Source: Marsupella aquatica (Eukaryota > Plantae > Marchantiophyta). Taken from it: a stretch of DNA of 64,000 nt. The translations under genes were made by a program, and so were the position numbers. Shown piece by piece: positions 11,073 to 47,304 of the stretch. Location: the NCBI GenBank assembly GCA_973895155.1, contig OZ316893.1, forward strand, positions 16,150,645 through 16,214,644, in the 5' to 3' direction. How positions within the stretch are numbered: the stretch's first letter is position 1; every line of letters begins with the position of its first letter. Under the pieces are notes generated by a model that saw only the letters and a list, made by a program, of their open reading frames with translations, made no database searches and was not told where the DNA came from.

Positions 11073-11082
11073 CTCCCCCTTG
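11073..11082 (-). promoter_or_regulatory. Polypurine tract (AAGGGGGAG) of copy A
   Basis: ctcccccttg directly inside the 3' LTR. Confidence 0.9.
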
Positions 11083-16190: not shown

Positions 16191-16535
16191 TATTCGGGAT
16201 GTCAGTTGATTTAAGAACTTTGGTGAAGATTGAATCGAGTGAAGTATCTCGATTGTACAATTGACCGGTTGGAAGCTTGTATATGGAGCTGAGGGAGCTT
16301 TCAATCATGCCAATAAAGTATTAGTCCTTTGGACTCTCGATATGCTGGTCCCGAATTGATGCTCTATGTGAAATTTCGTGTTTTGTAAAAAAATTCAACT
16401 CTGAGGCAAAAGAATGGAGACCAAGAAAAAAAAACGGTTATGGCAGTTTCTAAAAAAAAATGCCACTTTACGAGCATTCTCCTCGTGTAAAACTCGATTG
16501 CATCTGCTTGAAAAAAAATGATTTTAGAGACTGGC

Positions 16536-16549
16536 TCGTGCTGATAACG
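16536..16549 (-). promoter_or_regulatory. Primer binding site CGTTATCAGCACGA, half-tRNA-Ile type
   Basis: Abuts the 5' LTR; complementary to the anticodon arm of plant tRNA-Ile(AAU/IAU) as recalled, not to a CCA 3' end. Confidence 0.8.
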
Positions 16550-16746
16550 TGTTGTAATAGACAACTAAAGGAACGCTCAAAGATACTCCAACAAGATAGA
16601 TCCATTACTATTGATGAGGGGATATATATATCCCCTTGGTTACATGGTAGGCAAATGCCCTTATACTGGTCCTATGGTTAGGAGTTCTCATACTATGGTT
16701 AAGGGTTCTCGCCCTATGGTTAAGGGGTAAACTAGGGTTTACAACA
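16550..16746 (-). repeat. 5' LTR of copy A (197 bp)
   Basis: Identical to 10876-11072; followed on the minus strand by the PBS. Confidence 0.97.
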
Positions 16747-19543: not shown

Positions 19544-19686
19544 GCTATCCTCCGCTTCTACTCTAAGAACATATAGATATGTTCACACTGGTAGATTCTA
19601 GTGCATTTGTAGGATGCTAGCCTCCGCTTCTACTCTAAGAACATATAGATGTTAACACTGGTAGATTCTAGTACATTTGTAGGATT
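19544..19686. repeat. ~70-bp tandem duplication
   Basis: gcta.cctccgcttctactctaagaacatatagat...catttgtaggat occurs twice. Confidence 0.85.
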
Positions 19687-21005
19687 CCAGATGGTCAGCG
19701 CTAAAAAGCAGTCAAAAAATTAGGTTTCTAAAGAAAGTGGCACCAAAATCAAGGTATTAAACCAAGTAACCGAAATTTGCTAACGGAGTGGTGGACGTCT
19801 AGGGTTTTTTCCTCATCTGAGGGGAAAAAAACGGAATTACCACGCATGATAATCTACCTCCAGGCACATATAACAAATCCATTCACTGTTTTTGAGGGTT
19901 GCCCTCCTTTATTGGATTTGTTTAAAAGTTCCTTCAGGGGTTTTAATACAATAAGGGGTCTCAAATCTCAAAATTTGAGGAACCTGAACCTAGTAGTTAA
20001 GGTAAAGTGAAAGTTATGGACTACTAAGTTCATAATCCATGAGATTTTACCATAAACATTGGTCATATGCCATGACCATAAATTACTGTAGAGGCAGGGA
20101 AGAAAAAACCAACAACTCTTGTACACAACCCTGTCAAGTCAAGGGCCATAAGCGAACTCCACATAATTACTTAAGCTTTGAGATGCCCTAATAGTTACCT
20201 CCGTAAAACTGTCATGCCGAAAGATTAGTCCTTACATGGATTTTGGCTTTGGCTGACATAAATTTCATTAGTATTGAGGGTTCGGGCAAGAAGGGATGTG
20301 CAATTTGTATTATTCCCATAAACTAGCACTAAGAGCACCCGACTATACATACACATTGTCTTACCACAGGTATACTTTGTGTTCCGCCGCCGGAACGTAT
20401 CTTAAGTCGATAGCTGGATCGACTCCGGCTTCAGGACTTCTAAGCCTTCATGTTGTCCGCCTCCAATCCGGATCTGCTGATACGGCTCTCAACCTGGGCT
20501 CGCAACCACTATCCGCTGTTGGCACCCCGTGCGCAGCCCGCACAACGCATTCGGCCAAGCGTCTCTGCACGTATACGGGATTGACGACTGTGATCTTCAC
20601 AACATACATACAATCCCGATTTACATGAAGGAAATGGTGGGGTAAAGACTCTACTTCAAAATCCTGCATACACATACACACGGTTGACTCAACTTCTTCT
20701 GAACTAACAGGCCCAATGGCGATGCGATGTACACTACAATGGAGCCCGGCTTTGCTCTCGCCTGACAAGATTAGTCATACGCTCACCCCTTGGTGCCCTA
20801 TAGTTCTAAAGGCCAGGACTCCCCGCACATCCTGCGGCTGCCCGGTTTTGAACCTAAAGTCCCCCTGCCTCTACCGCGGGGTGCACTAAATACTGTCTAG
20901 GGTTGTGGCCAGGAACGGCCACGACGGCGACGCCAAATCTAACCTATCCTAAGTTCCTCTAATTGTCAGACCATAAAACGGCGCGTCCTATCCTAAGATT
21001 CTGTG

Positions 21006-23762
21006 CTAAGTGGGGTTGGCCGAATAAGGCAGTGCCACCAGGCCGGGAATTGGGTCCCCCAAAGCATATTCAACCATCTCCAATTGAGTCAACATTGTAT
21101 TCAACTTTGAGAATAAACTTTTAACATTCCCAACCATCCTGGCATCTTGAAGACAAAGTTCAAAAAGGCTTGGGCCACGGCCCTTCCTCCCGTGGGTCGT
21201 GTAGTTGACAAGGGCACCAATTTGATTTGATGCATGGGTTGCATCCGTTATACAAGATTGCACTATTCCAATCTTTGTTGTGGAAGACCATCGGTGCATT
21301 GCGGCATGCACGGATTCTGCCCCGCTATGGTTCAACATCAATGCAGACTTAGTTCTGTTCATGTCCTACACAAAAATCAAAAATAAAAGTATCATAAAAA
21401 ATATGTACATGGATCATCCGGTACATCTACAACATGTCCAACGTGGTCCATCCCTGAGAGGCTCTCCAAGATAACCCATGTGTTTACAAAAGTCGGAGAG
21501 GCTCTCTAACATGTCTAGTTTCTTGTTGGATATCTTTGAGATGACCAACATGTTTCATCTTGGAGAGGCTCTATGAGATGAACCATGTGTTTACAAAACA
21601 AGAGTTGACTTTCTAACATGTCTACCTTCTTGCCCATTTATTTCATCTTGGAGAGGCTCTCCGAGACGACCCATATATTCCATCTTGGAGAGGCTCTCCG
21701 AGATGGCCCACGTGTTCCATCTCGAAGAGGCTCTCTAACATGTCCAAGATGAATCATCTCGGAGGGCCTCTCTGAGATGTAATATTACTAAGAATTAATA
21801 GACTTACCAGCCGAATGTTTCCCCACTAGAAGAACCGCACAATCCACCACAAAAGCCATGTCTCCAGTGACTTGGTTTTTACTTTGATTGCATTCCCATT
21901 TTTCCACCAATCCTTCATCTTCTCAAAAGTCCAAAATGCAAGAACCACATTGACAGCGTCCCTCAATGAATCTAGAAGCTCCTTATGCTCAACTGCTTTG
22001 CCTGGAAGAATGCATTTCTTTGTCATCTTCTCCGCTGATTGCGCCCAGTGAAATGCATCAGATCGCTCCTTTTGAGAATTAACTCTTCCATCCCAGAATG
22101 TGTTTCAAATTGCATTCCACCCAATTGCAGCATTATCAACATAAACCCGCAAAATGTAATATTGTCAAGCCCATTTGCCTTACACACTCGCTTCATGACC
22201 TTCCATGCAGTTTGTAGTGCAGTAGTATCTTCCAAAACTAGCTCACATACAAAAATTGTGCACACACCTCTGTATAGGTGGTCGTATACATGAGTTGACA
22301 TTGTGCACCATTGCTTCTCAGTCATCCGATGCATAACATTAAACATCACCCATGAGTCTTGTAGATCTCCACCAGGCTGCATGCTTCAATTGAGATCAAC
22401 TCCAGACCCTGGACCCTTTACAGTCATCTTGAAAATGTGTGGGCGTTCATCTATATCTAGCTTCTGGTTTGGAAATAGAGTGCTTTGGACAAATGAAACC
22501 ACTGTTTTTTTTAAGATCAAGGATAACTTGGAGGTTGGACGAGGCATGGGTATACTTGCATATGCTCTATATCATAGATCTTACAACTGAACGATCTGAT
22601 AGTATTGCCAATATTTCATTCAGATCTTGCGCTTCCTCAAATCTGACAATCCCAGAACCTTGTCATCAATTACATCCCTTAGAGCTTTAATTGTGTCACT
22701 CTTGATCACAGACGGCATTGCATGAGAATTCTTCTTCAATTTCTCCTCCATCAAGTTATGTAAGAAAGCTTTTTGATCTTTCTTGAGAACAAATTTGGCC
22801 AGATGTGAGTGACTCCCAAGTTGCATAGCAACACATGTCATGTGCTTGTAAATATAATGGTCATGAGAGGTCGGAGTGACGTAGAACATTTTGGTTGGAT
22901 ACTTTGCTATGCACTTAGGAGGCCGATCACAAAAGGCGCAAATGACACTCTTTGTTGGAACTAGTTGTCCAACAGGAAATGAAACCTCATTTCTCCCACC
23001 CCTATCTTGCTGCCATTCTATGGAATTGCGCTCATTCTTGCTTGTAAAATCCGGACAATCTTAATGTGGACATTGCAAAGAGCCCATGCATCTCACATTC
23101 CCAATCTTATACTTGAAGCCTCCCTTGTTCAGCTTGGGTCCAATTTGGGCCCTTGACTCGATGAGCTTGCTTCACAGATAGCAGTCGTTTCTCCGCTCCA
23201 TACCCAAGAAGAAGGCAGCCTTTGTGTGGATACCTGTGAATGGGGGGAGCTCAAAAATGCAATCCCCATCATACCATTTGGGCAGATTCATGACTCGTCG
23301 GGGATAATGCACTTTGAGAATGGAATGGGAAGCCTTTACACATCGCGATGCGCCTTTCCCTTTCAGCATTGCGACAACAACACTTTCAAGAAATTTGGCT
23401 TGCTCTACCTCTGCCGGCCATTCTGAAATCTTCTCTCCAGTTTGAGATTGCAAACCAACTTCAGTAAGAGGAATAGAGCATAGCCTCTGCTGAAGAACGT
23501 ACAAAACTTCACTTTTCAGATGCCACATCCTTTCCTCTCCACTCTCCTCTGAGTTTGCCTCAATCAATGGTAAGACATTGCTGGCCTCAAAGAGTGCCCA
23601 CTCCCCAAACTCAACATCAAACCGATGAGCTAATTCGTTGTTTGGTGTATGCCGAACAACACGATCAGTCACAAGCACAACAACGTCTCCATTGTTTGGA
23701 AACGTGATCCTCACACGACCGCCATGATAACCACTTGGAGAAAGACTAATGTTGAGCACCAT
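21006..23762 (-). pseudogene. MULE-type DDE transposase with N-terminal GCM/WRKY-like zinc finger (decayed, one intron)
   Basis: Fragments CIFELPP; VRCMGSLQCPH.DCP; CAFCDRPPKC...VAMQLGSHSH; WVMFN(D)VMHR..W.TM..HVYD; GFM-DNAAIGWNA (frameshifted); AESVH give a DDE triad. Phase-0 GT-AG intron 21366-21807 joins RL|DM in frame. May extend to ~20360. Confidence 0.72.
21450..21779. repeat. Palindrome array 1 (~7 copies, inside the transposase intron)
   Basis: Repeated catcttggagaggctctccgagatg-type cores, ~37-bp spacing at the end. Confidence 0.9.
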
Positions 23763-24275
23763 GAGAGTTCAAGTGGCATCTACCGAGAGATTCCCCGTTC
23801 ATGTAAGGGATTTTATTGCCTTTCCACGAGTGTCAATTCAGTTTTGTTTCTCAAGAGCATAACTTAATCAGCAAACAATATGTGAAAATTGTTATTGATT
23901 CTTATGACTTTGTTTTGTCAGAGTACCTTATCTTCCAAACAAAGCATAAAAACCGTTATTGCCGCTTCTTTCTTTGTTGAATATGTGAAGATTGTTTTGT
24001 CATTGTACCTTATCGCCCAAACCAAGCGTAAAAACTATTATTGACGCTTCTTTCTTTGTTGAATATGTGAAGATTGTTTTGTCAGAGTACCTTACCGCCC
24101 AGACCAAGCGTAAAAATTGTTACAAATATTCTTCCCCCATTGAATATGTAACAATCCTTCTTGACAATGTACCCTTGTGAGCGTGAAAATTGTTATTGAC
24201 TATTCTTTATCCAGTGACTAAGTTTATTGGACCAACATCCAAGAACCTTTGACAACAAGTTTAGGGTGTCCATTA

Positions 24276-24612
24276 GGCTCTCTGAGATGCCATCTTGCGC
24301 AGGTATGAAGCCTCGACCCATGTTAGAGAGGCTCTCCAAGATGTCATCTTGCGCACGTATGAAGCCTCAACCCATGTTAGAGAGGCTCTCCGAGATGCCA
24401 TCTTGTGCAGGTATGAAGCCTTGACCCATGTTAGAGAGGCTCTCTGAGATGCCATGTTGCGCAAGTATGAAGCCTCGACCCATGTTAGAGAGGCTCTCCG
24501 AGATGCAATCTTGTGCAAGTATGAAGCCTTGACCCATGTTAGAGAGGCTCTCCAAGATGCCATCTTGCACCAAATCTAAGTGAGGACCATGTTAGAGAAG
24601 CTCTTTGAGATG
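24276..24612. repeat. Palindrome array 2 (54-bp tandem unit, ~6 copies)
   Basis: gaagcc...cccatgttagagaggctctccaagatg units start at 24307, 24361, 24415, 24469, 24523. Confidence 0.93.
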
Positions 24613-24654
24613 CCATTTTCAGGTGTGTAGCAAGGATCAGGCCCAATATTTGTC

Positions 24655-25610
24655 AAAGAGCCTCTCCAAAGTTATCACCAACACCTCCTATCCTGAGTTG
24701 TCATCTTAGAGATCCTCTTTGAGGTCTGACCTTGTGTAATATGCCTATGAGAGGCTCTATGAGGCATGGTCGGGATGATTTGTCATCTTGGAGAGGCTCT
24801 CTAACATGGGTCTCGTCATGACATGTCATCTTGGAGAGCCTCTCCAACTTAAGTCCCAACCTTACATGTCATCTCGGAGACGCTCTTTGACATTGGTCTT
24901 GTCATTACATGTCATCTTGGAGAGCCTCTTTGAGGTCTGACCTTGTGTAATATGCCATTTTGGAGAGGCTCTATGAGGCATGACTGGGCTGATTTGTCAT
25001 CTCGGAGAGCCTCTCTAACATGGGTCTTGTCATGACATGTCATCTCGGAGAGCCTCTCCAACTTAAGTCCCGACCTTACATGTCATCTCGGAGAGCCTCT
25101 CTAACATGGGTCTCGTCATGACATGTCATCTCGGAGAGCCTGGCTCTGACTTAATTCCCAACCTTACATGTCATCTCGAAGACGCTCTCTGACATGGGTC
25201 TCGTCATTACTTGTCATCTTGGAGAGCCTCTCCGACTTAAGTCCCGACCTTGCATGTCATCTCAAAGAGCCTCTCTCACATGGGTCCTGACCTGACATGT
25301 CATCTTGGAGATGCCCTTTGACATCGGTCTCGTCATTACATGTCATCTTGGAGAGCCTCTCTAACATGGGTCCTGACTTGACATGTCATCTTGGAGACGC
25401 TCTTTGACATGGGTCTCATCATTACATGTCATCTCGGAGAGCCTCTCTGACATGGGTCCTGACTTGACATGTCATCTTGGAGACGCTCTTTGACATGGGT
25501 CTCATCATTACATGTCATCTTGGAGAGCCTCTTTGACATGGGTCCTAACCTGACATGTCATCTCGGAGACAATCAGGAACATGTCCCAACTTAAGACTGG
25601 CCTAACATGT
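24655..25610. repeat. Palindrome array 3 (~43-bp period, variable spacers, ~20 copies)
   Basis: acatgtcatct(c/t)ggagagcctctc... at 24821, 24864, 24907 and onward, with several alternating spacer types. Confidence 0.93.
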
Positions 25611-27265
25611 CATGTGAGTACTGTATATTTTTGGGAATTAAATCCGATCGTTGAATGATTGTACTCATTAATACCAAGTAATGATAGGAAATCTTATCTG
25701 GTCTGGAATCAATCGTACTAAGGACATTATGGCGTGAAGGGGTAATAATGATGAAAGCATCTGTAGAGGTACTTCAGTGTTGCAACTCTGACATGAGTCA
25801 AATCCAGGCATTCATCAGTTAGGGAGTAGTACGACTACATATAACCCAATAAACTACTAACATGTAAACTTCCTCCCGTGGCCCCTACCACCTGTAATCA
25901 ATGAGTGGCCCCATAGATCTCCCGTTGCTTGGATGGGACTTGACCTGCGTGACGGCGGTAGTGAATATAGTTGTGATGCCCTTACATCTTCCATTGCCTA
26001 ATGATGATGATGACTACATCCAGCCTTGTCCCCTCCGTCTCTCGCCTTTGCTTCTTACATCTACCCTGAACTTATTGCAGCTATCATTTCATTATCTTTT
26101 CCTCATTTGAATTACAATCGAGGCAGAGCAAGTTCAAGTGCGGATGCAATTGTGGATTGAGTGTGCCTTACTTGTTGTGTAATCTTTTTCTCTCCGCACG
26201 TTGTAGATTGAGCTCAGGTGCAATGCGAGTGCGAGTGTGCTGTAGATTTTGCTGAGTTGTGGGCTGTGGGCAGAACTCCTGAATTGCAAATGAGGTTGTG
26301 CGGGTGTAAGTACGGGTGCATTTGTGGATTGAGTTCTCGGTGTGATTGACTGCTGTGAGCTATGGCGGTGTGAGTGCAAGTGCTGTGCAAGTGGTGGAAG
26401 TGATGCAATTGAGTGTTGTGAGCTGTGGGCGGTGCAAGTGCAAGTGTTGTGCGATTGCCAGTGATTGAGTTGTTGGCGGTGCAAGTGCTGTGCAATTGAA
26501 GTTGTGCTCGTGCAATTGAGTAGTTGGTGAGAGCAAAACATTCTGAAAATGATAGGGAAGAGGAAGCAACCCGCTCCCTCTCCTTCATTTTCTGGTTGGC
26601 AGAGAGCACCGCCAGTGGTCGGGAAACTCACACAATGAAGAAGCTAGAGCCGAAGGTTCTGAACTTCAAAAATTTGTCTGCTGAACGTTTGAACAAGGGT
26701 GCTTTTAAAGGGATTGTTGGGGAGTACTTGGTTTCATTTGGAGTTGAACCAAGCGGGAAGCCCAAAGAGCCACCTTGAATTCCACTATGTCGTTTGATGA
26801 CAATGGAGGCAGTTCGGACTCTCCAACAGAGCTCCATCCTCAAGATGAAGAAGGACTTTGTAAAGAAGTTCATGGGTATGTGGACAAGTTTTTGGAATTC
26901 CACATATCAGAGACCAATGTACATAACGCCACCCACTCCATGTCTAAATTTTTTGCGGATTGGGACCCTCTATGGGAACAAGCTAACGCAAAATTTGAGA
27001 TGGAGTGTGATGGCTACAAGGAGTTTCAAGTTTTGAAGGCTAAGATGTTTTGGGTGTTTGATGGAAATCATCGCCTCAATGCATGGAGACAAGTGGTTGG
27101 AGACTATCCTAACGAGCAGAAGTACCACCCTTGCGTGAGATTCTCTCTTCTACAACCTGGAAAACAAGGATTCAGGAAGATTGAGCAGGCAATGCATGGC
27201 CTGAATGCGTAAGTTTTTGCCCCCTTGGTTTTTGGTTGTTCTTGCATTTGTTGTTCTTTTGCACC

Positions 27266-27875
27266 TAGAGAGGCAATGCTATCTCGGAGAGGCTCTCTGA
27301 GATAGAAATAACCTTCCCTTCTTGGAGAGCCTCTTCAAGATATCCATGCCTTCTTGAAGAGCGATGCCTTCTCGGAGAGCCTCTCCAAGATAGAAAGAAC
27401 CTTCCCTTCTTGAAGAGCCTCTCCGAGATATCCATACCTTCTTGAAGAGCGATGCCTTCTTGGAGAGCCTCTTTGAGATAGAAAGAACCTTCCCTTCTTG
27501 GAGAGCCTCTCTGAGATAACCATGCCTTCTTAGAGAGCCTCTCCAAGATAGAAAGAACCTTCCCTTCTCGAAGAGCCTCTCCGAGATATCCATACCTTCT
27601 TGAAGAGCGATGCCTTCTTGGAGAGCCTCTTTGAGATAGAAAGAACCTTCCCTTCTCGGAGAGCTTCTCTGAGATATCCATGCCTTCTTGAAGAGCAATG
27701 CTTTCTCGGAGAGCCTCTCCAAGATAGAAAGAACTTTCCCTTCTCGGAGAGCCTCTCCAAGATATCACTGCCTCCTTGAAGAGCGATGCCTTCTCGGAGA
27801 GCCTCTCCAAGATAGGGAGACCCTCCCCTTCTTGGAGAGCCTCTCCAAGATAGGAAGCTTCTCCAAGATGTCATG
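27266..27875. repeat. Palindrome array 4 (38+50-bp higher-order repeat, inside an intron)
   Basis: Alternating gatagaaagaaccttccc and gatatccatgccttcttgaagagc spacers around ggagagcctctcc cores. Confidence 0.93.
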
Positions 27876-30047
27876 AAGATGTTAGTTCATCTTGTAGAGA
27901 TATGTCCAACCTGAAATTTTTTGTACATAGCCTTTGACGCTAATATTTGTCGCTTCTTTTACGTAGGATAAGCGCAAACGTTGTGCAAACATCTTGGTTG
28001 ACCGATGCAGACAGGGTGAAGAAGTTGTTGATGACACCATTGGAGGAGTATCAGACATTGCTTCATCCGGATGATTATGCTAGATTCTTAGCAGCGAGAA
28101 ACCATGGGCATGGAAAGACATGGTACAACAAGTGCATGACAAAGGATGTTGCTATGTACATCATGTCGTGGAATAATATTGAAGACGGGAGGATTTGTCT
28201 TGCGAAGGAGATGGCAGCCAATGCAGCAATTGGCCACACCTGGAGTTCGGAGAAGTTCCAGAAGGAAACTGCACTCATGACGAGTGAAGCTTGTAGGTCT
28301 TGGGAGGGCAAAATGCAAAAGTTTGCTCAGATTGTCAATCCAGCAAATGGAGAGGAATTTTTGGAGATAGTCGAGGAGCTGCACCAATTGCAGAGTCAAC
28401 AAAAAGATCGGCCACAAGTGCAAGTGGGGTTGGATAGAGTTAAATTATTTGCAAGTGTGGTCATGCCTGCTGATTGTTGAAACAGGTTACTCCGGGTTCA
28501 TTTCTCAATTGCGGAGGAGAAGAAGTGACACCACCATCCAGATGTATATGGTGATTCAGTAGTGAGAGCTTGGTTGCTAGTGTGGTCAATGTGGTGTTAC
28601 ATTGCCCATGTTGGCAATTTGATTATGTCAGAGTTTGCCGAGAGTGCATATGATTCTGGTGAGTGGCAGAATATCAATGGAAGCAAAGACAAGTTTGTTG
28701 AGTTCCACACCAAAATGTACAAGCAATTTGTACAGACTTGGTCCTATGAGGAGGGCAAGGAGATGTGGAATCCAGCAAAGCAAAGCAAAGATCTGTGGAG
28801 GAAGTGTGCAAAGAGGTGTGTGGTCCGATATTTACCTCATCAAGAGAGCATTGGAGCCTCTACTTTCAAAGTGTTATCAAGTGCTCTGACTGCATGGATG
28901 ACGGAGAAAGGCTCTCTATCAATGTATCCAACAGATGGGCTGAAGCCAGCAGCATGAGTCTTTTCATACTGGGAGAGACAAAATTGTCCATGGTTCATGG
29001 AGTTCATTGATTGGAATGAGTTCATTACGCCCAAAGAGAAGGATGCCACCAACCTCCTAAAGGAGAGGAAACTACCAGACAACCTTTTTGCGCCTTCAGA
29101 GTTGGCAGATCTTGCGCATTCGGCTAAGGCTGCATTGGAGTTGGAAGCCATTTTGCCTCTTGGAGAGCCAGAGTATGATGGAAAGGATGGTTCAGGGGAA
29201 GAAAGATAAGGAATCAAAAGACACCACCTCAGAACAAGGCACTCTTGGTAAGGATACACCCTGGCTTTCATTTTGCATTGTGCATCTGACCTATGTTGGA
29301 GAGCCTCTCCAAGATAGTATCATTGTAAAATGTATACTAAAGTCCTTAGTTTGTTCTGCAGAAAAAAGTAAAGAAAAGTTTGGAACCCCAGAGTCTACCT
29401 CAAGCAAACGTCGTCCAATGGATGAGAAGATGGAGGAGCAGAAGGAGACCAGGGACAATGGAGAGGAGGATGAGAAAGCAAGTGGGGACAATGGAGAGGA
29501 GGATGAGATGGCCACCCAGGGACAATGTAGAGGGGCATGAGGAGGAGGAGGAGGAGGCTAACCTTTCAACCCCAAGCGGGACCCCGAGCAAACCACAAAT
29601 CTTTGGGTAAGCCAACTAGTTGGCCAAAGAAGAAAGCTGAGAAGAGAATAGAAGAGCCTACAAATAAGCCAGTTTCAACAGAAGCCCCGCTTCTTTCGGA
29701 GGATGATCTTTGCAAAATTCTTGGAGTACCTCGGCCCTCTCATGCTATTACATTTGCCCTCCAATTTTGCCATCAAAAGAGCATATGACCTTACTAGAGT
29801 GTTCTTCTTGGCTGAAGGACAAATATCAGCCAACCACAGGAAAGTTGCCTCTCCCTCCATTCATGAGAAAATTCCAGGACTGGTGTAAAAAATTGAAGTT
29901 GGTTGGCTTGCAAAAACAAGGTTGGATAGTTGATGGTGTACCTAAGGGCCATGGTTTTGATATGATCTTTGTTCAGCTAGGGACAAATTATTGCCTAGCA
30001 CACGCTGAAAAGAATGTTCCGGTGTGGAATAGATTTTGGCTCAGTGA

Positions 30048-30450
30048 TGTTGGGTATTTACTCTTACGTCTAGGTTAGGTATGACGTGGTTGGTACAACT
30101 ACGTGGTTAGGTACTACTACATGATTAGGTACAACTATGTGGTTAGGTACAACTACGTGATTAGGTACAACTATGTGGTTAGATACAACTAAGTTGCACA
30201 CTATATCATAAGAGGCATGTGTGCTTGGAGAGGTAGAACCAAGGCTCATTGTTATGGAGCCACTTGAGAGATAGGGAGAGCTTACACCGTGGAGACTCGG
30301 TATAGCCGACGGGCTTAGAGTTCAGTAAAGCTCTCTTGTGTGTTCCCGTGGACGTAGCCTCAAGGAGGTGAACCACGTATCTCTTGTGTCGACTATTGTG
30401 CGTTGGATGGTTCATGGGCTTGCCGTTGCGATCGTCGTCTATGCTCAACA
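30048..30450 (+). repeat. 5' LTR of copy C with 18-bp tandem repeats
   Basis: Units resembling ggttaggtacaactacgt; homologous to 36123-36543. Confidence 0.95.
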
Positions 30451-30452
30451 AT

Positions 30453-30464
30453 TGGTATCAAAGC
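30453..30464 (+). promoter_or_regulatory. PBS for initiator tRNA-Met (one mismatch)
   Basis: tggtatcaaagc versus canonical TGGTATCAGAGC, 2 nt after the 5' LTR. Confidence 0.9.
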
Positions 30465-31605
30465 ATGCTTGGGAGGTGACGTGTGTTCGTGACGGGATTT
30501 CATGACGGTTTTTCCAGCGTTGAGTGTTGGTGGATTTTCCAGAGTTCCATCGCATAGAACTTGGAGTTTATGGGCTCAACGGATAGATCAGGGCAAGAGC
30601 TTTCTAACGGTGTGAAGAAATCGTTGAACGGAGCTCGTGGTGCAAAGAGATCTAAGTTTTTGTCGTTCTGGATTTTGTGAAGAAAGTTGGCAATCGACTC
30701 GGAGGGAGAAGCGTCAAGTGTTTTGACTCAACGGAGAGATTGAGGCAAGACGATTGTTTTTGAGTCCGGGATTGGCTCTTTGATGCAAAGAGGAAGGCCA
30801 AGCAAAATCAATTACCTTGTTGGACTTGGTGACGGCACCAAGTGCAATTGATCAACATTCGTTGTTGACAAGGTACCGTTTTTTTCTCTTTGAAAAACTG
30901 ATTCGAAATTGGCTATGGCAATTGAGAGAAATCTGTCATCTTTACCAATTTTTTTCTCCCTCGTTCTTTCCTCGTTTTGGGTGCTTCTTATATCGATCTT
31001 CATCGCCTCGGAGTCTAGTTTCCAAATCTGAAATCAGATCTTGATTTCGTCAAAACCCGAGTGAGATATCTTGCGTTTGGTGTCGAGGGGTACATTCTGC
31101 CGTGTGTATTTTCTGCGCGCGCGACCAGATTTCGACGACGAAGGGTGGTAGGGGGGTTTTGGGGGTTCGAGGACACATGTCAACCCCTCGATTGTTCTTC
31201 CAAAATTCCCACAGGGCCTGTACAAGGGTCATAGAATATTCCAAAAAACCAGAGAGCTATTTTTTGACCGTCCGACAAAGATTTCATCCGCCGAACGGTA
31301 ACTTTTTTGGTTATTTTTCGGCAAGGTCGTAGCCATTGAAATTGGCAACGCAGTGCACCAATCACATCGCAATTCCGACAACGGGTTGTACTTGGTATTT
31401 CGGTTATTCCCTGAGGTGGTCAAAACGGGGGAGTTTCCCAAGGTTTTACCCACCTCGACCGAAATTTGAATAACTTTTCCGTCAAATTTCGATTTTGATT
31501 TCGGTTTTCAGTATTGGACTCCTAGCTTTGTGGGCTACACGGCGGTGTTGAGTTTTGAGTTTTTTGAGAAGTTGTGAAAAACAACATTTTTTGTGATTTT
31601 CTCAT

Positions 31606-34600
31606 ATGAGTGATTCGGAGGAGTTTTTTGAAGACGTGGAACTTGAAGCACGAGGATCACCGCGGAGGTTTCAGGGGCAGAGAGAGGAGCAGGAGGAAGA
31701 GCACGTGACACCGATACCATCACCGGTGCGGCGTGTGGTGGAGGAAGCAGTACTACTACCGGAGCTCACGGTAGTGCCAAAGAAGAAGATAGGGACTTTC
31801 AAGCTTGGGGGACCCAAGTATGAAGTGACAAAGTATGATGGGCGCTCTGACTACTTGCTATGGGAGAAGCAGGTGAAGGGAGTGCTTTATGCGTCAGGGA
31901 TGGGCCAACTGCTGAGCCCTCGTGAAGACGATGTTGATGAGAAACAATGGGACCGCATGCAGGAGCAGGGAGTGTGGTGTGTTACACTCTATCTCATGCC
32001 TCCCATCATCAAGTAGTTGGGTGCACATAAGGATTGCATGTCCTTGTTTGCGGAATTGCAGAGCAAGTATCACCGCAAGGAGTTGTCGAACCGGCTCTAC
32101 ACTTCCTACAAACTGATGAGTTTCAGGATGAAGGAATCCGGTACGAAGTTGCAAGACCATGTGGATGCTTTCAACGACATGGTCGTTGACTTGGAAAACC
32201 TTGGGGAGACTTTGAATGATGAGACGAAGGCTCTACAGCTTCTTAGTTCATTGCCTCCATCTTACCAGTCTCTATCACGAGTGTTGTTGCATCGTGATAG
32301 GGATACCATTTCATACAATGACGTGGTAAGTTCTCTGCTTAGTGATGATCTTCAGCAGAAGATGCACATCACGTCACAACCTTCATCATCTGGTGCTGCC
32401 CTCAATGTTAACCGTGGGAGGAGTATGCAGCGACCAACTGGGGACCGTAGAACCCAGTTTAGATCTAAATCCAGATCTAAGTCCAAGGGTAAATCCCCTC
32501 AGAGGAGGCAGGTGACATGTTGGAAGTGCAACCAAGTTGGACACTTCAAGCGAGACTGTAAGGGAAAGGCAGCGGAAACTTCATCGGCAAATGTGGCTAG
32601 GGCTGATGGAGAAGTTGATTTACTCAATGATGAGTATGTTTTATGAAGCCGGGGGTATGCCCTGTGCACGTCATCTAGGAGAGCAGATGATGTGTGGATT
32701 CTTGATTGTGCTTGCTCTTTTCATATTTGTTACATTCGTGAGTTTTTCAGTTCTTACTCTGTTTCAAACGGTTCATTCTGATGGGAAATGATCACTCCTG
32801 TCAAATTGAGGGAATTGGGTCTGTGAAGATTCAAATGTTTGATGGCGCTGTGCGCACAGTGTCCGGAGTCAGGTATGTACCTGGCATGCGTAAAAATCTG
32901 ATTTCACTCGGTGTGTTGGATTCAAATGGTCATCAATGGAGCGTTATTGATGGTGAACTTCAAGTCAGGTTGGGAGAGACAATGATTTTGAAGGGGAGTA
33001 GACAAAAGAATTTGTATGTGTTATAGGGCAATACTGTATGTGGAGAGGCCAATGTAACCAAGTCTCACGAGGAGATGACTCAACTCTGGCATTCACGGCT
33101 AGGCCACATGAGTGAGAAGGGTTTGGCTATCTTACGGAAGAATGGACTCATTTCTGATTTGCAATTTTGTAAATTAGAGTTTTATGAGCATTGCATTCTT
33201 GGAAAGCAGCATCGTCGTGCTTTTGGTGTTGGAACTCATCGTTCCAAAGCGGTTCTTGAGTACATACATAATGACGTGTGGGGTCCATCCCCGACTCCCT
33301 CACACTCTGGAAAGTTGTACTATGTATCATTTATTGATGATTACTCAAGATTTGTGTGGATTTATTTCATGATGCATAAGTCTGATGTCTTGTCCATTTT
33401 TAAGAAGTGGAAGGCCCAGGTGGAGAATCAGACTGGAAACACGATCAAGTGTTTGGATACAAGGGTGAAGAGTCTGAGGTCAGACAACGGCAGGGAGTAC
33501 ACTTCAATGGAATTTGAAGAGTACTGTTCAGAACAGGGGATAACTCGCCATCTCACCACAGTTTATACTCCGCAGCAGAAGGGTGTTGCTGAGAGGCTCA
33601 ATCGGACACTGTTGGAGCGGTCACGGAGTATGTTGAGCCAATCAGGTTTACCACAAGAATTTTGGGCAGAAACTGTCAATACCGCAGCTTATTTGGTAAA
33701 TCTTTCTCCTTCTAGTGCTATCAATTTCAAAACGCCGTTTGAGATGCGCTATAAGCGGCAAGCAGACTATCATGGCTTGGTAGTTTTTGGAAGTGATGCA
33801 TATGCTCTCACACCGAAGCAGAATAGGACCAAGTTGGATCCTACCTCCAGGAAATGTGTTTTTCTTGGGTACCAGAGTGGTGTGAAAGCCTATAGGCTAT
33901 GGGATCCTATTGCCTGTAAGCTCGTTGTCAGTAGGGATGTTTCCTTCAATGAATCCAGATTATTAAAGGAGGGGGAGCATACTCAGGTCTCCCGTACTGA
34001 CAAAGGAAAATCTCCTATCCCGGATCTCGTTGAGGGGGAGATTGGTTATGAGGTGCATGACCGGAAAGAAGGAGTTGCTCCAATTATGGAGCTGGTTCCT
34101 GTGCCAGAGGAACCAGAGGAGTTTGTTGATGCTGGTGAGCAGCAAGTGGATGCTGTTGAGCTTCAAATTGTACCAGCACACGCAGATCAATCGGAGTCAT
34201 CGGCTAGAAGAACATCTGGTCACACTGTACGCGCTCCACCAAGGTATGGACAGTGGGTTGATTCATCTCAACTGCAAGAGGATGATTTTACAGCTGATGA
34301 TGAGGGTGATGCGTTAATTTTGGAAGAAGGGGAACCTTCTTCATTTCATGAGGCAAGTGCTTCAAAGGAGAAGCAGAAGTGGACTGCATCAATGCAAACG
34401 GAGATGCAGTCACTAAAGGACAATAAAACTTGGGAGCTTGTTAAGCTGCCTAAGGGTCAGCAAGTGGTGGACAGCAAGTGGTGGACAGCAAGTGGATTTA
34501 CAAGCTGAAGGATAATTCCATAGGAGGTGGATCGAAGGTCTACAAGGCTAGATTGGTAGCAAAGGGATTCACACAAGAGAAAGGTGTGGATTACAATGAG

Positions 34601-35932
34601 GTCTTCTCACCAGTTGCTAAGTACTCTACAATACGACTATTGTGTGTACTTGTTGTAATGTTTGGTCTGTTGCTAGATCAGATGGATGTTGTCACAGCTT
34701 TCCTCTATGGCACATTGGAAGAGGTGATCTTCATGAGACAACCGCTAGGTTTTGTGAAGAGAGGACAGGAGGAATTGGTTTGCAGATTGCTGAAATCCTT
34801 GTATGGGTTGAAGCAGTCATCAAGACAGTGGAACAAGTGGTTTGACGATTGGATTCGGTCACAAGGTTTTCACAGAAGTGTATTTGACCCTTGTGTGTAT
34901 TTGAAACCGGTAAAGAATGTTGTCTTTGGGTTCATTGTTTTAGTACTTTATGTGGATAATATGCTAATTGCAGCCAAGGATAGGTCTGAGATTGTTAAGC
35001 TCAAGGCACTGCTTAGTGCAGAGTTTAAGATGAAAGACTTAGGGCCAGCTAAGAGGATTTTGGGTATGGAGATCACTAGGAACTTGGAGGCTGGCAAGCT
35101 ATGGTTGACGCAGAGCAGTTATGCGAGGAAGGTAATTGCAAGGTTCAACATGGGGAATAGCAAGCCAGTAAGTACCCCGTTGGCTCCACACTTCAAGTTA
35201 TCATCAGCGTTCTGTCCTATGGATGACATAGAGAAGGGGTTGATGTCAAAGGTTCCGTATGACAAGGCAGTGGGGAGTCTCATGTATTTGATGACTTGCA
35301 CTAGACCTGATCTTGCCATGGCTATGGGCAAGGTGAGCAGGTACATGTCAAATCCAGGGAAGGTACACTGGGAAGCAATGAAGTGGATTATCAGGTACTT
35401 GAAGGGTACCGTGGATCATGGTCTTTTATTTGATGCGAATGCAAAGAATGCTAAATCATTGATTGGCTATGTTGATTCTGACTATGGACAAGATTTGGAC
35501 TGAAGGAGATCAACAACAGGATACGTGTTCACACTTGGCGGTGGATGCATAAGTTGGAGGTCTACTTTGCAGAAGTGTATTGCTCAGTCTACTATAGAAG
35601 CGGAGTATGTTGCAGCTGCGGAAGCAGCAAAGGAAGCGATTTGGTTGAATAGACTTATCACTGAAATGGGATTGCCACAGGGGAATGTGAAGCTCCATTG
35701 TGATAGTCAAAGTGCGCTCCACCTTGCTGTGAACCAAGTGATGGACAGCAGAGTGAAGCACATTGACGTTAGGCACCATTTTATCAGGCAGGCTGTGTCT
35801 GATAATTTGTTTGAGCTAGTCAAGATTGATGGTAAACTCAACCCGGTTGACGTATTTACCAAAGTGATTCCTTTGGAGAGTTTCTCTAGACACCGTGACG
35901 TATTGCAGGTTTTGCAATTGCATCACAAGTAG
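31606..35932 (+). pseudogene. Gag-Pol of copia C with multiple stops and frameshifts
   Basis: Gag (KYDGRSDYLLW, CWKCNQVGH), protease WILDCACSFH, integrase (LWHSRLGH, DVWGP, LRSDNG), RT (YGLKQ; YVDN instead of YVDD), RNase H. Stops at 32014, 32644, 33024, 35501; frameshifts near 32780 and 34470. Confidence 0.93.
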
Positions 35933-36122
35933 AGTTTTCTTAACATTCATTGTAATTACTGATATATGCTCTTCCTCATTCCTATGTATTAGGCTACGGC
36001 TTAGTTCTGGTTTGCTCTAGTTAGAGAGGGAAACCGGTTTGGTTTTTGTCCAGAACTTCCCGCTGAGGGATCATATACATTGGCAGTATTACTCTCCCCT
36101 AGACCAGAGTCAAGGGGAAGAT

Positions 36123-36543
36123 TGTTGGGTATTTACTCTTACGTCTAGGTTAGGTATGACGTGGTTGGTACAACAACGTGGGTTGGTACAACTACGTGGT
36201 TAGGTACAATTACGTGATTAGGTACAACTATGTGGTTAGGTACAACTACGTGATTAGGTACAACTATGTGGTTAGGTACAACTAAGTTGCACACTATATC
36301 ATAAGAGGCATGTGTGCTTGGAGAGGTAGAACCAAGGCTCATTGTTATGGAGCCACTTGAGAGATAGGGAGAGCTTACACTGTGGAGACTCGGTATAGCC
36401 GACGGGCTTAGAGTTCAGTAAAGCTCTCTTGTGTGTTCCCGTGGACGTAGCCTCAAGGAGGTGAACCACGTATCTCTTGTGTCGACTATTGTGCGTTGGA
36501 TGGTTCATGGGCTTGCCGTTGCGATCGTCATCTATGCTCAACA
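36123..36543 (+). repeat. 3' LTR of copy C
   Basis: One 18-bp unit longer than the 5' LTR, plus several substitutions. Confidence 0.95.
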
Positions 36544-36785
36544 AGTGACCTAGAAATGGCAACGACATTGGTAGACTCTCTACTCACAAACGACGGTTTC
36601 TTGTGCATCGTGCACAGTGGTTCATTTGCCCACACAGGCTCAATCTTTGAGTACCTTCACATTGACTGGGCTGAGAAATGGATCACATTGACTCATTCAC
36701 CATTTGAAATGATATGCCTTGCTACATGGCGTCAAGCAAAAAAGCTATAAGTTCACAAATATTTTGGCATTTATCAGTAGAAGTC

Positions 36786-37192
36786 ATTTTGAAGAGGCTC
36801 TCCAAGATAGTTCAAAAATGTGTCCGCAATTACCATCTCAGAGACGCGCTCCTAGATAGGTAAGATTGATCATGGAGAGGATCTTTGAGATAGGTAGGAT
36901 CAATCTCAAAGAGCCTATCCCAAATCCTACATATCTCGGAGAGCCTCTCCGAGATAGGGAAGATCCATCTTGGAGAACCTCTCTAAGATAGGTAGCATGG
37001 ATCTTGGAGAGCCTCTATGAGATAGGTACCTTGGATCTTGGAGAATTTATCTGAGATAGGTAGGATCCATCTTGAAGAGCCTCTCTGAAATAGGGAAGAT
37101 CCATCTTGGAGAGCCTCTCTAAGATAGGTAGCATGAATCTTGGAGAACTTCTTTGACATAGGTAGGATCCATCTCGGAGAGCCTCTCCAACA
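36786..37192. repeat. Palindrome array 5 (~38-bp period, inside a probable intron)
   Basis: gatagg...gatccatct(c/t)ggagagcctctc units. Confidence 0.9.
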
Positions 37193-38364
37193 TAAGTAGG
37201 ACCGATGTTAGATAAGTAGAGCAATTAGTGTTGCTAACAAGTGCAAATCTATTTTGCATGATGTGTCAGGCTCAATATCTGCATTTGGATATACAACAGG
37301 GGTGACCCTCCCAAAGGTACATATGAAGCCAATTGTTGGTGACCTGTGCCCAACAACGAGCAATGCTCTATCCAATTTTACAAAGGAAGATGATGCAGTG
37401 AGAGACAAATTGGCGGGTACCTTATCGCTTGCAATATTGCAATGCATCATAGAGCACATCACCAGTCCTGGCGATATAATATTTTCTTGGAATGTCCACT
37501 TTGGTGCTATCTACAAACCTACCAATAATTGTGGGCGACTAGTATTTGGGATGGAAGCGCATGACTACTTTGGTGACTCAGCAGCTTCAGTGGTGTGAAA
37601 ACTCCTTTCAACGCAGCAGGGCAATGAGACCAAGGCGAAGGCCAAGGAGGAGACTAAGAAGGAGGAGGCCAAGGAGACTACAAAGCCTAACTTAGGGTAG
37701 AAGAAGCTAGTCCTTGAGTCTGATTCAGAGGAGGATGTCGCAAAAGGCAAGGGTGGGGATGCTTAGGATTGTGAGTAAACATTGAATCCAAGAACCCATT
37801 TGTTGTAGGTAGTTTGCAATTTATATTGTGCCATGGTGAGGATCAATAAAAATGTGTAAGTTCCACATTATTATGGCATTACCCTAAATTGTCTACTTAA
37901 CCAATAGGCAGTTCACTACAGGAACATTGAGTTTGAACAATGGCCAGCACACATCGGACAAGAACAAAGTCCATGAAGCATGGGAGGAAGCATCAAAAAC
38001 TTTCTCTCCAGAAAGATTTTGCCTTCCAACCTATGCAGAAGGGAGTGTTGATTCACGTCCCTTCAAACGGCTCAAGGGTGTAGCTGAGAAGTACACAAAG
38101 AGGCAAAAATCTAGATTTGTAGATGATAGAGCAGTAGAGGTAGACTACAATGAAAGTGAGTGTCAGCAGTGGTAGTGACGAGGTAGCTCACCCTTCTTTT
38201 GTGATACATAGCTCAGATGAAGATGATGCCTAATGCCATGTTGTTCAATCCTATGTAGCACGTGGTGGGAATACCCGGATACTTGGGTCATTTATTGAAG
38301 TAGTCTACTTTCAGGAATTTTCCAACATAGTATCCACATGTCTATCCATAGAGCTCCCAGGTGA

Positions 38365-38630
38365 GGAAGTAATGTCCAACTTTGTAGAGTACAAGTTGAC
38401 CAGGGCGTCAATGAGATGCTTGTCTCAAGGAAGAACATCAGCTCAATGGCTACATTCAGATATCATCGATGCATACTTGGCCTTGTTGTAGTTTAGGGGG
38501 AGATCAAGAGACTATCCAAAGTGTGCATTTTTCATCATAGCATTCTACACGTTGCTTTCATCGCCTGTATACTGTTTTGCCAATTGCTCGATGGACCAAA
38601 ACATAAAACATATTTTGACATGGAGGTTAA
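38365..38630 (+). pseudogene. Ulp1/SENP (peptidase C48) N-terminal fragment, truncated
   Basis: Manual translation: KLTRASMRCLSQGRTSAQWLHSDIIDAYLALL*FRGRSRDYPKCAFFIIAFYTLL, matching the C48 WLNDEIIN.Y..LL...KC.FF..FY pattern. Confidence 0.75.
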
Positions 38631-39309
38631 CACTGTGATGCCTAGCCAGGAATCACTAGGCCAGTTAAAGTGGTAAAATCGGGAGTGTACCCTCAAAACA
38701 CATTAGTATAGTAACAAAACAAGGAAAATATAAACAATTAAGGGTGACTATGGAACCCAAGCCGAGGCCGGAAGTAAGGGCGCCACGGCAAGGAACGCAA
38801 TTAGGGTTAGGGCACGCTAAGTGCCGACAGCAATAGGTAATCAATGGGAAGATCGACCATGGAGGGGGGGTAAGGCAGGGCAACCCAGGAGTAACGGCTC
38901 ACATTCGCACCTCAAGCAAGCAGAGTGCAAGTAGAAGCCAACGACTGTGAGCTGCGGAGGAGAAGGCGGGAGGGGCATAAGCAGCTACCGAGCAACGCCA
39001 GAGAAGGGAATGAGCAACATCAATCAAGCAACACATTTTTGGGGATGCCTGTTTGAACGGGCAAGTGAGTATGTCAGGACTTACAAAGAGGAAGAATCAG
39101 AAAGAGCAGCCCACGAGCGATAGGAACTTGCTTGGCTGTGGGAACTGCAGAAGACAACCTTCTTAGGAGGAGAACTCATCAAGGCTGAATTCTTGTGGAC
39201 ACCTACTGGCGACAAGCTTGACGACCTTCTAATTTGAGACAACAAAATCGTCGGCATCCGGCAAGCCATCAACAATTGCAACGACGAACATTGGGACCGG
39301 AAAGGTTGC

Positions 39310-46820: not shown

Positions 46821-47304
46821 AAAGGAGCAATGAAATGGCAGAAATTTAGCAAGGTAGATTAGTGAAATTTTTAAGTTAAGTATCGAGTTACAGTTAAGCA
46901 GAGGTTGAGTCATTAGGGCATTTACTATTTAAACCATGTAAAATTTTACCAGAGCTTCATTTTGTCTAGTTGGGGCTCAATTTTGGTCAGGCGACAATTC
47001 TATAGAGATGGATCAGTCTGGAGGTATCCGCTTGGAGTAACGATTGCAACGATTTGGGGCATGCACGGCAACGAGTTAGTTTATGAAGGCTGCAATATTA
47101 TGTTGGAAGATGCAAAGCGGTGTGCCTTGGGGCCGAATGCCCACAGAGCTGGACTGAGTAGAGAAGAACAGAATGTAGGGTTGCCAGTGCAAAATTGGGT
47201 GAATCATTTTTGTCAACCAGTAGGCTCAGGCCAATATATGTACAATTTTTTTGTGAAAATCAATGATGGTGCATGTTTATCAAGTGTGGGAAGAAGTTGA
47301 TTGT

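What the first reader, a model, noticed from the sequence alone, without database searches (positions are those of the whole stretch)
21006..38630. Candidate new transposon system: MULE with ParB/Srx-methyltransferase-like and Ulp1 cargo plus cognate palindrome arrays
Seen: a GCM-finger DDE transposase (minus strand) sits head-to-head with a gene carrying a DGNHR ParB/Srx motif and a beta-class amino-MTase-like C-terminus, followed by a Ulp1 fragment. One 23-bp palindrome, ATCTCGGAGAG(C/G)CTCTCCGAGAT, occurs in dozens of copies in non-coding parts of this unit and I saw it nowhere else in the window. Known: Arabidopsis VANDAL MULEs encode a transposase, a Ulp1-like protein and VANC, which binds motifs amplified as tandem repeats in the element's non-coding DNA to counter silencing; bacterial ParB proteins load at palindromic parS sites. 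Inference: the ParB-MTase-like protein may bind, spread from or mark these palindromes as an element-specific anti-silencing or self-recognition system. This copy is decayed.
Basis: partly seen in the sequence, partly recalled or inferred. Interest (0 to 1): 0.9.

Follow-up and report, generated by a model that had tools for sequence, protein, structure and literature searches.

The report
Plant transposon with ParB-matched palindromes
A decayed DNA transposon, likely from a liverwort, carries a gene predicted to fuse the fold of the bacterial DNA clamp ParB to a likely inactive DNA methyltransferase, surrounded by 59 copies of one palindrome; distant relatives carry the same gene with different palindromes of their own, so the protein likely reads these sites to control its own element.

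Summary
Observation confirmed and extended. The window holds 59 degenerate copies of one 23-bp palindrome, all in introns or intergenic DNA of the unit and none elsewhere. They lie in five arrays that share the palindrome but not the spacers. A MULE-like transposase lies head-to-head with a spliced cargo gene split by a copia insertion. The cargo's first exon folds as ParB/Srx and keeps the nucleotide-binding residues. An intact Riccia homolog ends in a beta-class amino-methyltransferase-like domain without the catalytic DPPY/SPPY motif. The middle helical domain matches no known fold. Named homologs are from liverworts and ferns. Of 58 non-redundant related loci, 17 carry five or more copies of their own palindrome, against at most 3 in 24 control stretches. 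The motifs follow the protein tree and cluster around the cargo gene. Best reading (0.48): an element-encoded, parS-like self-recognition system that counters host silencing. Binding is not shown; linkage alone also yields co-variation; no termini were found; Ulp1 is weak and seen only here. Ten literature searches found no description.

The parts
21006..23768 (-). Decayed MULE-like DDE transposase gene: Cys/His zinc-finger region, RNase-H-like core, one intron at about 21807-21366; 3' end cut off near 21006
   Evidence: 6 in-frame stops in 22140-23768
21450..21778 (.). Palindrome array A (7 copies, period about 37) in the transposase intron
24275..24616 (.). Palindrome array B (period 54, 6 copies counted) between the two genes
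24703..25569 (.). Palindrome array C (period 43/86, 19 copies counted) between the two genes
26549..27208 (+). Cargo gene exon 1: basic disordered N-terminus and ParB/Srx-fold domain (IPLCRL, VR, GY, DGNHR, MHxLN); broken by stops and a frameshift
27279..27852 (.). Palindrome array D (periods 38/50/88, 14 copies) in cargo intron 1 (about 27209-27966)
27967..29247 (+). Cargo exon 2: conserved all-helical middle domain of about 350 aa, no fold match; in-frame stops
29293..29315 (.). Single palindrome in cargo intron 2 (29248-29361)
29362..30047 (+). Cargo exon 3, first part: acidic/basic linker and start of the methyltransferase-like domain (motif IV position reads DMIFVQLGT)
   Evidence: motif position assigned by eye against P0178/P0179
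30048..36543 (+). Later Ty1/copia LTR retrotransposon insertion (LTRs about 30048-30450 and 36123-36543, 98% alike, 5-bp target duplication AGTGA); holds no palindrome; not part of the system
36544..36747 (+). Cargo exon 3, second part (methyltransferase-like core)
36786..37201 (.). Palindrome array E (period 34, 12 copies, holds the one exact copy at 36933) in cargo intron 3
37270..37766 (+). Cargo exon 4: methyltransferase-like C-terminal half (motif I position degenerate) and tail
   Evidence: tblastn of Riccia P0178 residues 1072-1177 to 37308-37625, E 1.3e-5
37888..38632 (+). Third reading frame: short F.LP.Y / ..DD.A.E peptide weakly shared with relatives, acidic linker, then the N-terminal part of a Ulp1-like protease domain, cut at about 38632
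   Evidence: Pfam Peptidase_C48 E 0.07, profile 1-55 of 217; weak pairwise matches to relatives

Best explanation
This is a decayed copy of a MULE-like transposon family whose cargo protein, predicted to join a ParB/Srx nucleotide-binding domain, a helical domain and a likely inactive amino-methyltransferase domain, likely binds its own element's palindromes as a dimer and likely counters host silencing of that element. Shown: the gene layout, the palindrome arrays, their non-coding placement, and clade-specific palindromes beside homologous genes. Predicted: the ParB fold and a homodimer through it. Inferred: (1) the palindrome is the loading site, like parS, OB or virS; (2) nucleotide binding closes the dimer, so a few sites let it spread over the element; (3) the helical and/or pseudo-methyltransferase domain reads the half-sites, many of which hold a CpG, and shields or reactivates the DNA without adding a mark; (4) tandem amplification of short units copies the site into promoter and introns, and each subfamily drifts to its own site, as in VANDAL/VANC.
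For: Arrays amplified separately share the palindrome (0.74-0.82 identity) but not its flanks (0.30-0.50). 17 of 58 non-redundant related loci carry >=5 copies of a palindrome; 15 of the 31 loci of >=2 kb exceed their shuffles, while 0 of 24 control stretches exceed 3. The motif-by-locus table is near diagonal and follows clades of the ParB-exon tree. L001, the closest locus in the tree, keeps the outer arms and spacing ATCTCGG-N9-CCGAGAT with a different core. In 14 relatives the motif density is 1.4-3.2 per kb in the 2 kb before the ParB exon and 2-3 kb after it, 0 in the exon and near 0 beyond -4 kb and +3 kb; several sets are dispersed with unrelated flanks (0.34-0.39). ParB fold: AlphaFold2 pLDDT 83, Foldseek probability 0.99 to Srx and CDP-bound ParB (E 0.02-0.05), top 8 VIA rows all ParB/Srx family, KorB Z 7.0, rmsd 2.9 over 93 residues. 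Conserved R42 68 of 76, GNHR arginine 73 of 80, N175 78 of 80. Homodimer model of Riccia P0180 12-410: score 0.34 against best control 0.00, mark 0.32; runs agree in at least 52% of contacts, pLDDT about 51; the mark was reached by 21 of 30 solved pairs and 0 of 23 single chains (17 of 29 and 0 of 30 in eukaryotes); the pass may reflect likeness to solved ParB dimers; the interface lies in the ParB domain. Precedents: VANC (PMC5735166, passages) and the ParB-type antisilencer VirB (PMC10770331, abstract).
Against: No binding data. All parts of an element are inherited together, so co-variation does not say which protein reads the motif. The helical domain gave no HTH or other fold match (best Z 5.9, model pLDDT 70, last 84 residues under 50), so the DNA-reading part is unidentified. 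41 of 58 loci show fewer than five copies; most are short contigs, but the long loci L018, L025, L042, L055 and L080 show none. Best motifs of L071/L074 are units of an AT-rich satellite, though both also hold the clade motif. In this copy the arrays are as CpG-depleted (o/e 0.18-0.43) as the coding exons (0.34-0.44), so no lasting protection is visible. Divergent ParB folds can be ATP-using enzymes and not clamps (PMC12704722, passages). The controls are few and are not other transposon families with arrays. The direction of the effect (activation or repression) is not tested.
Confidence: 0.48

Rival explanations
1. The transposase reads the palindromes through its zinc finger (internal enhancer-like or activating sites); the ParB-methyltransferase-like gene is linked cargo with another job.
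For: Motif and transposase are linked as tightly as motif and cargo. Seven copies lie in the transposase intron. A 2026 preprint reports that the AtMu1 transposase alone activates cognate copies (10.64898/2026.08.24.746577, abstract only). No DNA-binding fold was identified in the cargo.
Against: In relatives the motifs bracket the cargo gene and are nearly absent from -4 to -10 kb, where the transposase remains lie; coverage there is thinner (3-9 kb per bin). Long two-fold sites beside a ParB fold fit a dimeric ParB-type reader.
Confidence: 0.17
2. The cargo protein reads the palindromes but acts as a KorB-like repressor or copy-number brake (autoregulation), not as an antisilencer.
For: Best structural match is KorB, a clamp that silences at a distance (PMC11790492, passages). 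Sites crowd the shared promoter region and the cargo's own introns.
Against: Amplified motif arrays in non-coding DNA of a MULE are tied to anti-silencing in VANDAL. The best Z values are close (7.0, 6.0, 6.0), so KorB is not singled out.
Confidence: 0.15
3. The cargo is an active, atypical 4mC or 6mA methyltransferase that marks the palindromes or the DNA around them as self.
For: Beta-class order of motifs, PF01555 E 5e-5 to 9e-6 in Riccia proteins (below cut-off), PHROG DNA methyltransferase hits to E 2e-7; domain remains found in 14 of 15 non-redundant loci with >=3.5 kb downstream. Many half-sites hold a CpG. Marchantia has an active 4mC enzyme acting on CG (10.1101/2021.02.12.428880, passages).
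Against: Motif IV reads DLPTG, DMPSG, DMPTG, DVPFG, DFPIG, DYPEN, DIPEN or DVPSN, never (D/N/S)PP(Y/F); motif I reads DFAGGWG, DCHAMTG, DWNASTG. MpDN4MT1 has TSPPY. The canonical motif is partly recalled knowledge.
Confidence: 0.12
4. The palindromes have no protein reader: hairpin-prone units seed tandem expansions, or act as RNA hairpins in introns and leaders.
For: Many copies are in tandem arrays that gain and lose units between copies (joints). Several long loci lack any.
Against: The same palindrome recurs with unrelated spacers in five arrays and as dispersed single sites in relatives. Other tandem repeats of the window do not hold it. About a dozen different motifs all keep two-fold symmetry and a size of 16-24 bp.
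Confidence: 0.08

Closest known systems
VANDAL MULEs and VANC anti-silencing proteins of Arabidopsis (PMC5735166, passages read)
   Same: MULE with an accessory gene; motifs amplified as tandem repeats in introns and intergenic DNA; motif differs between subfamilies.
   Different: VANC motifs are 8-9 bp and arrayed in one orientation; here 16-24 bp palindromes. The cargo has a ParB fold and a methyltransferase-like domain; no Pfam family other than weak PF01555 was hit. Anti-silencing is shown for VANC, inferred here.
ParB/parS-type clamps used as regulators: KorB/OB (PMC11790492, passages), VirB/virS (PMC10770331, abstract)
   Same: ParB-CTPase fold with conserved Arg, GxxR and Asn positions; palindromic sites near the gene; predicted dimer through this domain.
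   Different: Eukaryotic, intron-containing, transposon-borne. About 50 residues inserted in the fold; no recognised HTH; no ParA partner seen; nucleotide unknown.
Phage ParB_N + N6_N4_Mtase fusion proteins (PMC12704722, section 7 read)
   Same: Same domain order. They are the nearest named clusters in the ESM Atlas (0.83, a lead only); weak PHROG ParB-like hits (13 of 36 members, best E 0.014).
   Different: Plant proteins are about 1200 aa with a large helical insert and degenerate catalytic motifs. Descent from phage genes is plausible but not shown.
MpDN4MT1 4mC methyltransferases of Marchantia (10.1101/2021.02.12.428880, passages)
   Same: Liverwort, beta-class amino-methyltransferase type, CG context.
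   Different: MpDN4MT1 has TSPPY and is active; no ParB fusion or transposon link was seen in the passages read. Sequences were not compared.
DIRS1 retrotransposon methyltransferase domain and ParB-HTH-fused chlorophyte-type Dam (PMC4738411, passages)
   Same: A likely inactive methyltransferase domain carried by a transposon; eukaryotic methyltransferases traced to phage ParB loci.
   Different: Different methyltransferase clades and elements; those fusions are to a ParB-type HTH, not the ParB/Srx nucleotide-binding domain; this family is not named in the passages.

Membership tests
MULE (Mutator) transposon | DDE transposase of the MULE type | tested here: met
   ESM Atlas best hits for relative P0183 are MULE clusters at 0.95 (179 of 256 features; PF10551 on 49-78% of members). 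Intact relatives show WVMSD, FIADN and FHW; in the window the first Asp reads Asn. No direct Pfam hit.
MULE (Mutator) transposon | Terminal inverted repeats (or non-TIR ends) with 8-11 bp target duplication (PMC6446971, passages) | tested here: inconclusive
   No terminal repeat between 18000-22000 and 37001-43000; both reading frames are cut at the ends; no whole genome.
MULE (Mutator) transposon | Multi-copy, with both genes travelling together | tested here: met
   Collapsed contigs in run X3 at depth 131 on the transposase and 153 on the cargo, against 9-11 for exact-match contigs (the tool warns depth is no copy number, and no contig spans both genes). Head-to-head pair in L026, L047, L059, L072, L075.
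VANDAL/VANC system | Accessory protein homologous to VANC | tested here: inconclusive
   No plant Pfam family hit by the cargo pieces or homologs; VANC itself was not compared.
VANDAL/VANC system | Short non-palindromic motifs arrayed in one orientation | tested here: not met
   Motifs are 16-24 bp palindromes against YAGTATTAY and AGTTGT(C/A)C.
VANDAL/VANC system | Motif amplified by tandem repeats in non-coding DNA, subfamily-specific | tested here: met
VANDAL/VANC system | Protein binds motif and removes DNA methylation in trans | not testable with these tools
   needs binding and methylome experiments
ParB/Srx (ParB-CTPase) fold | Fold with Box I arginine, GxxR and Box III asparagine | tested here: met
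   matching R42 and N175 to Boxes I and III is by position and recall, not from a residue-level superposition
Canonical ParB DNA clamp | [quoted passage not shown] | tested here: inconclusive
   Middle domain is all-helical with no match above background.
Canonical ParB DNA clamp | N-terminal domain self-engagement | tested here: inconclusive
   Marginal pass, 0.34 against control 0.00, pLDDT about 51, 52% contact agreement; may be from likeness to solved dimers.
Canonical ParB DNA clamp | CTP binding, site-stimulated hydrolysis and sliding | not testable with these tools
   PMC12704722 reports that nucleotide choice cannot be predicted from sequence.
Beta-class N4C/N6A DNA methyltransferase | Motif IV before motif I in a PF01555-like domain | tested here: met
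   Riccia P0178/P0179/P0176, L015 and L021, window by tblastn; all scores below Pfam's cut-off; domain not folded.
Beta-class N4C/N6A DNA methyltransferase | Catalytic (D/N/S)PP(Y/F/W) motif | tested here: not met
   Absent in every member read.
Ulp1/C48 protease | His-Asp-Cys catalytic domain | tested here: inconclusive
   Only profile positions 1-55 present, E 0.07; frame cut before the catalytic residues; not found in 80 relatives.
GCM zinc finger | Match to the GCM domain | tested here: inconclusive
   No Pfam or PDB hit; the Cys/His pattern resemblance is recalled.

The most novel reading that the evidence does not exclude
Liverworts, ferns and their relatives harbour a transposon lineage that took over a phage-type ParB-methyltransferase gene and turned it into a nucleotide-switched sliding clamp: it loads at element-specific parS-like palindromes, spreads over the element in eukaryotic chromatin, and blocks host CpG silencing, with site and protein co-evolving into about a dozen orthogonal pairs. 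It would be the first ParB/parS-type system in a eukaryotic nucleus and a second, independent invention of VANC-like anti-silencing.
Probability: 0.3. Interest if true: 0.95.

Novelty: categorically new. Interest (0 to 1): 0.85.

Why it matters
A 2025 survey names sulfiredoxin as the most common eukaryotic ParB-fold protein and, in the passages read, names no plant or transposon family (PMC12704722). A ParB-fold protein paired with palindromes in plant transposons would bring the load-and-slide principle into eukaryotic chromatin. It also makes a standing question testable: how a protein that recognises a short motif can affect a whole element many kilobases long, which the VANC paper calls enigmatic. 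The family supplies natural matched and mismatched protein-site pairs, and a full-length annotated homolog exists in Riccia sorocarpa.

Tried and rejected
No whole genome is held, so genome-wide spread, termini and target duplications were not tested. Pfam on window pieces gave nothing but weak C48; Pfam on ParB exons gave only weak DUF1015, DndB and DUF6551 hits in 4, 3 and 1 of 36 members. Sequence searches of PDB gave nothing useful for the ParB exon, transposase or methyltransferase-like domain. No relative in viral contigs. Phage tblastn gave only weak methyltransferase hits, best E 0.01. No fold match for the middle domain; absence is not evidence of a new fold. First methyltransferase HMM found nothing; a split, iterated one did (its E-values are inflated by iteration, and it did not pick up the window's own motif IV piece). 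No RNA holder listed. No tRNA. Depth over the Ulp1 region was not obtained, so its linkage to the element is open. The Fisher test used 22 controls where 24 were scored and treats related loci as independent; it is not used. In one search, L004 (1931 nt) was included after its array had been seen while four loci of like size were not, so counts are given without it (15 of 31) and for all 58. Literature searches found no description; subscription journals are mostly missing, and supplements of PMC12704722 and PMC4738411 were not read and could list these proteins.

Full report
1. Observation. The palindrome is real. One exact copy and 12 copies at up to 2 mismatches were found, with none in 100 shuffles. 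At up to 6 mismatches there are 59, all within 21450-37193, against a shuffle mean of 0.05. All 59 lie in non-coding DNA: 25 between the genes, 27 in three cargo introns and 7 in the transposase intron. They form five arrays with periods of about 37, 54, 43/86, 38/50/88 and 34. Between arrays the palindrome is 0.74-0.82 identical and the 10 bases either side only 0.30-0.50, so the palindrome is the kept unit. Decay is mainly C>T and G>A at its CpG sites, as expected of host-methylated DNA (inference).

2. Anatomy. A minus-strand transposase (21006-23768) has relatives at 50-55% identity (4 hits). One of them falls with MULE clusters in the ESM Atlas at 0.95; Pfam and PDB sequence searches gave nothing. 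The plus-strand cargo gene (26549-37766) has four exons and is split by a copia element at 30048-36543 with a 5-bp target duplication. Its first intron position is shared across the family, and a Calypogeia fissa protein confirms the exon 1-2 junction. That protein is the closest named homolog, so the host is likely a liverwort (inference). A third frame ends in a weak Ulp1-like fragment (E 0.07). Both ends of the unit are cut and no termini were found. Public contigs show the unit at many times the depth of exact-match contigs, alike over both genes (depth is no copy number).

3. The cargo protein. The exon-1 family has 827 representatives at E <= 0.001. The 10 long ones looked up are from Riccia sorocarpa (6) and two Adiantum ferns (4), all named hypothetical. 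A model from 36 sequences (pLDDT 83) matches Srx and CDP-bound ParB in Foldseek (probability 0.99, E 0.02-0.05). The top 8 of 48,161 VIA rows are all ParB/Srx-family structures (KorB Z 7.0, rmsd 2.9, 93 residues; next unrelated row 3.7). The VR arginine (68 of 76), the GNHR arginine (73 of 80) and the terminal asparagine (78 of 80) are conserved. The intact Riccia protein P0178 (1207 aa) adds a helical domain and a PF01555-like domain (E 5e-5, below cut-off) and matches window exons 1, 2 and 4. Motif IV is D-x-P-x, never DPPY or SPPY, and motif I is degenerate in all members read, so I read the domain as likely inactive. The middle domain is all-helical (pLDDT 70, high over about the first 200 residues) with no fold match. 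A homodimer model passed narrowly through the ParB domain: 0.34 against best control 0.00, 52% contact agreement, pLDDT about 51; 21 of 30 solved pairs and 0 of 23 single chains reach the mark, and the pass may come from likeness to solved ParB dimers. After two plant clusters, the nearest Atlas clusters are phage N6_N4_Mtase and ParB_N + N6_N4_Mtase proteins (0.83-0.84, a lead).

4. Related loci. A metagenome scan confirmed 185 stretches, of which the best 80 were returned; they form 58 clusters at 97% identity. Their introns and decay suggest plant genomic copies (inference). A blind search for repeated palindromes found five or more copies in 17 of 58. In the gene-proximal zone, 15 of the 31 loci of at least 2 kb beat 20 shuffles by more than one, while 16 far-flank and 8 window control stretches gave at most 3; the 26 shorter clusters and L004 are left out of that count. 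The motifs differ: GAAGCCC-N2-GGGCTTC (L004), TTGGGTCG-N2-CGACCCAA (L005), TGTCTCGG-N2-CCGAGACA (L006 clade), GAGGTGCC-N6-GGCACCTC (L008 clade), CAACTTT-N8-AAAGTTG (L037 clade), GTACTTT-N8-AAAGTAC (L047 and L058 clades), ATTGGCGG-N2-CCGCCAAT (L053), TGTGAAGAA-N6-TTCTTCACA (L062), CATTCGGCGCCGAATG (L063), CCATATGC-N6-GCATATGG (L072). The motif-by-locus table is near diagonal and follows tree clades. L001, the nearest locus to the window, has two copies of ATCTCGG-N9-CCGAGAT just after exon 1. Nine of 13 motif sets show a CpG or a decaying CpG column. In 14 motif-bearing loci the sites peak 0.3-2 kb before and 1-3 kb after the ParB exon and nearly vanish beyond. Methyltransferase-like remains follow the ParB exon in 14 of 15 non-redundant loci with at least 3.5 kb downstream. 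A transposase homolog lies upstream on the opposite strand in 4 of 9 loci with at least 8.9 kb upstream, and in the L059 group; none was found in another arrangement. Against: L018, L025, L042, L055 and L080 are long but show no repeated palindrome; Ulp1 was found in none of the 80.

5. Mechanism. Best reading (0.48): the cargo dimer loads at its clade's palindrome, uses the ParB nucleotide switch to spread, and counters silencing without writing a mark. Layout and co-variation are shown; fold and dimer are predicted; binding, sliding and anti-silencing are inferred from ParB, KorB (PMC11790492, passages), VirB (PMC10770331, abstract) and VANC (PMC5735166, passages). The transposase as reader gets 0.17, since linkage gives the same co-variation and a preprint shows a Mutator transposase activating its own copies (abstract). 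No reader gets 0.08. This copy shows no spared CpGs in its arrays, which neither helps the anti-silencing reading nor excludes it in a dead copy.

6. Known systems and novelty. It is a MULE-like element by its transposase, with ends untested. It works like VANDAL/VANC but fails that family's motif type. It has the ParB fold but no recognised HTH. It has the beta-class methyltransferase layout but fails the catalytic motif. Ten searches of the open literature found no description. Passages of the eukaryotic amino-methyltransferase review (PMC4738411), the ParB-fold survey (PMC12704722) and the MULE phylogeny (PMC6446971) do not name it; their supplements were not read. Earlier AI notes of this scan report phage ParB-methyltransferases paired with palindromes; they are unchecked leads that fit a phage origin.

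7. Verdict. A real, family-wide and apparently undescribed pairing of a ParB-fold cargo gene with clade-specific palindromes on a plant MULE. Interest 0.85; mechanism untested.

Noticed in passing
window 10876-16748 and 47305-53178: Two minus-strand copia elements 99.8% identical over 5876 bp, with near-identical 197-bp LTRs: a very young family.
   Followed up: no
window 24275-24616: Other genomic copies carry telomere-type letters (GGTTTAGGG, ACCCTAAACCCTAA) at joints in this array; L076/L079/L080 hold 16 AACCCTAAAT 10-mers.
   Followed up: no
P0181 and P0183, C-terminal read-through into the transposase intron: The peptides SGRGSPR and NLGALRRDG are what the window-type palindrome, or an ATCTCGG-N9-CCGAGAT variant, would give when translated; hints that relatives have the site in the same intron. 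Inferred from protein only.
   Followed up: partly
L071:2119-5158, L050:4829-6197, L071:9117-9903: Long AT-rich satellites (periods 25 and 15/30) inside or beside the element copies.
   Followed up: no
window 38633-42620 and 43191-47300: Unclassified elements with long frames and no Pfam hit; the first begins where the Ulp1-like frame stops.
   Followed up: partly
window 57042-57260: Minus-strand stretch 80% alike to the LTR of the inserted copia.
   Followed up: no
window 45800-46182 and 55774-56098: Two copies (88-92%) of a short A/T-tract-rich repeat with internal inverted ends, possibly a MITE.
   Followed up: no
window 20113-21225: A much higher-depth repeat abuts the cut end of the transposase.
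   Followed up: no
P0148 (Adiantum capillus-veneris): Gene model joins the ParB-like protein to an NIF/FCP1 phosphatase domain (E 2e-12); fusion or annotation artefact.
   Followed up: no
L015:306-4483 and L021:26-3753: Near-intact multi-exon cargo genes of distant clades, useful for experiments; neither contig shows a repeated palindrome in the little non-coding DNA it holds.
   Followed up: partly
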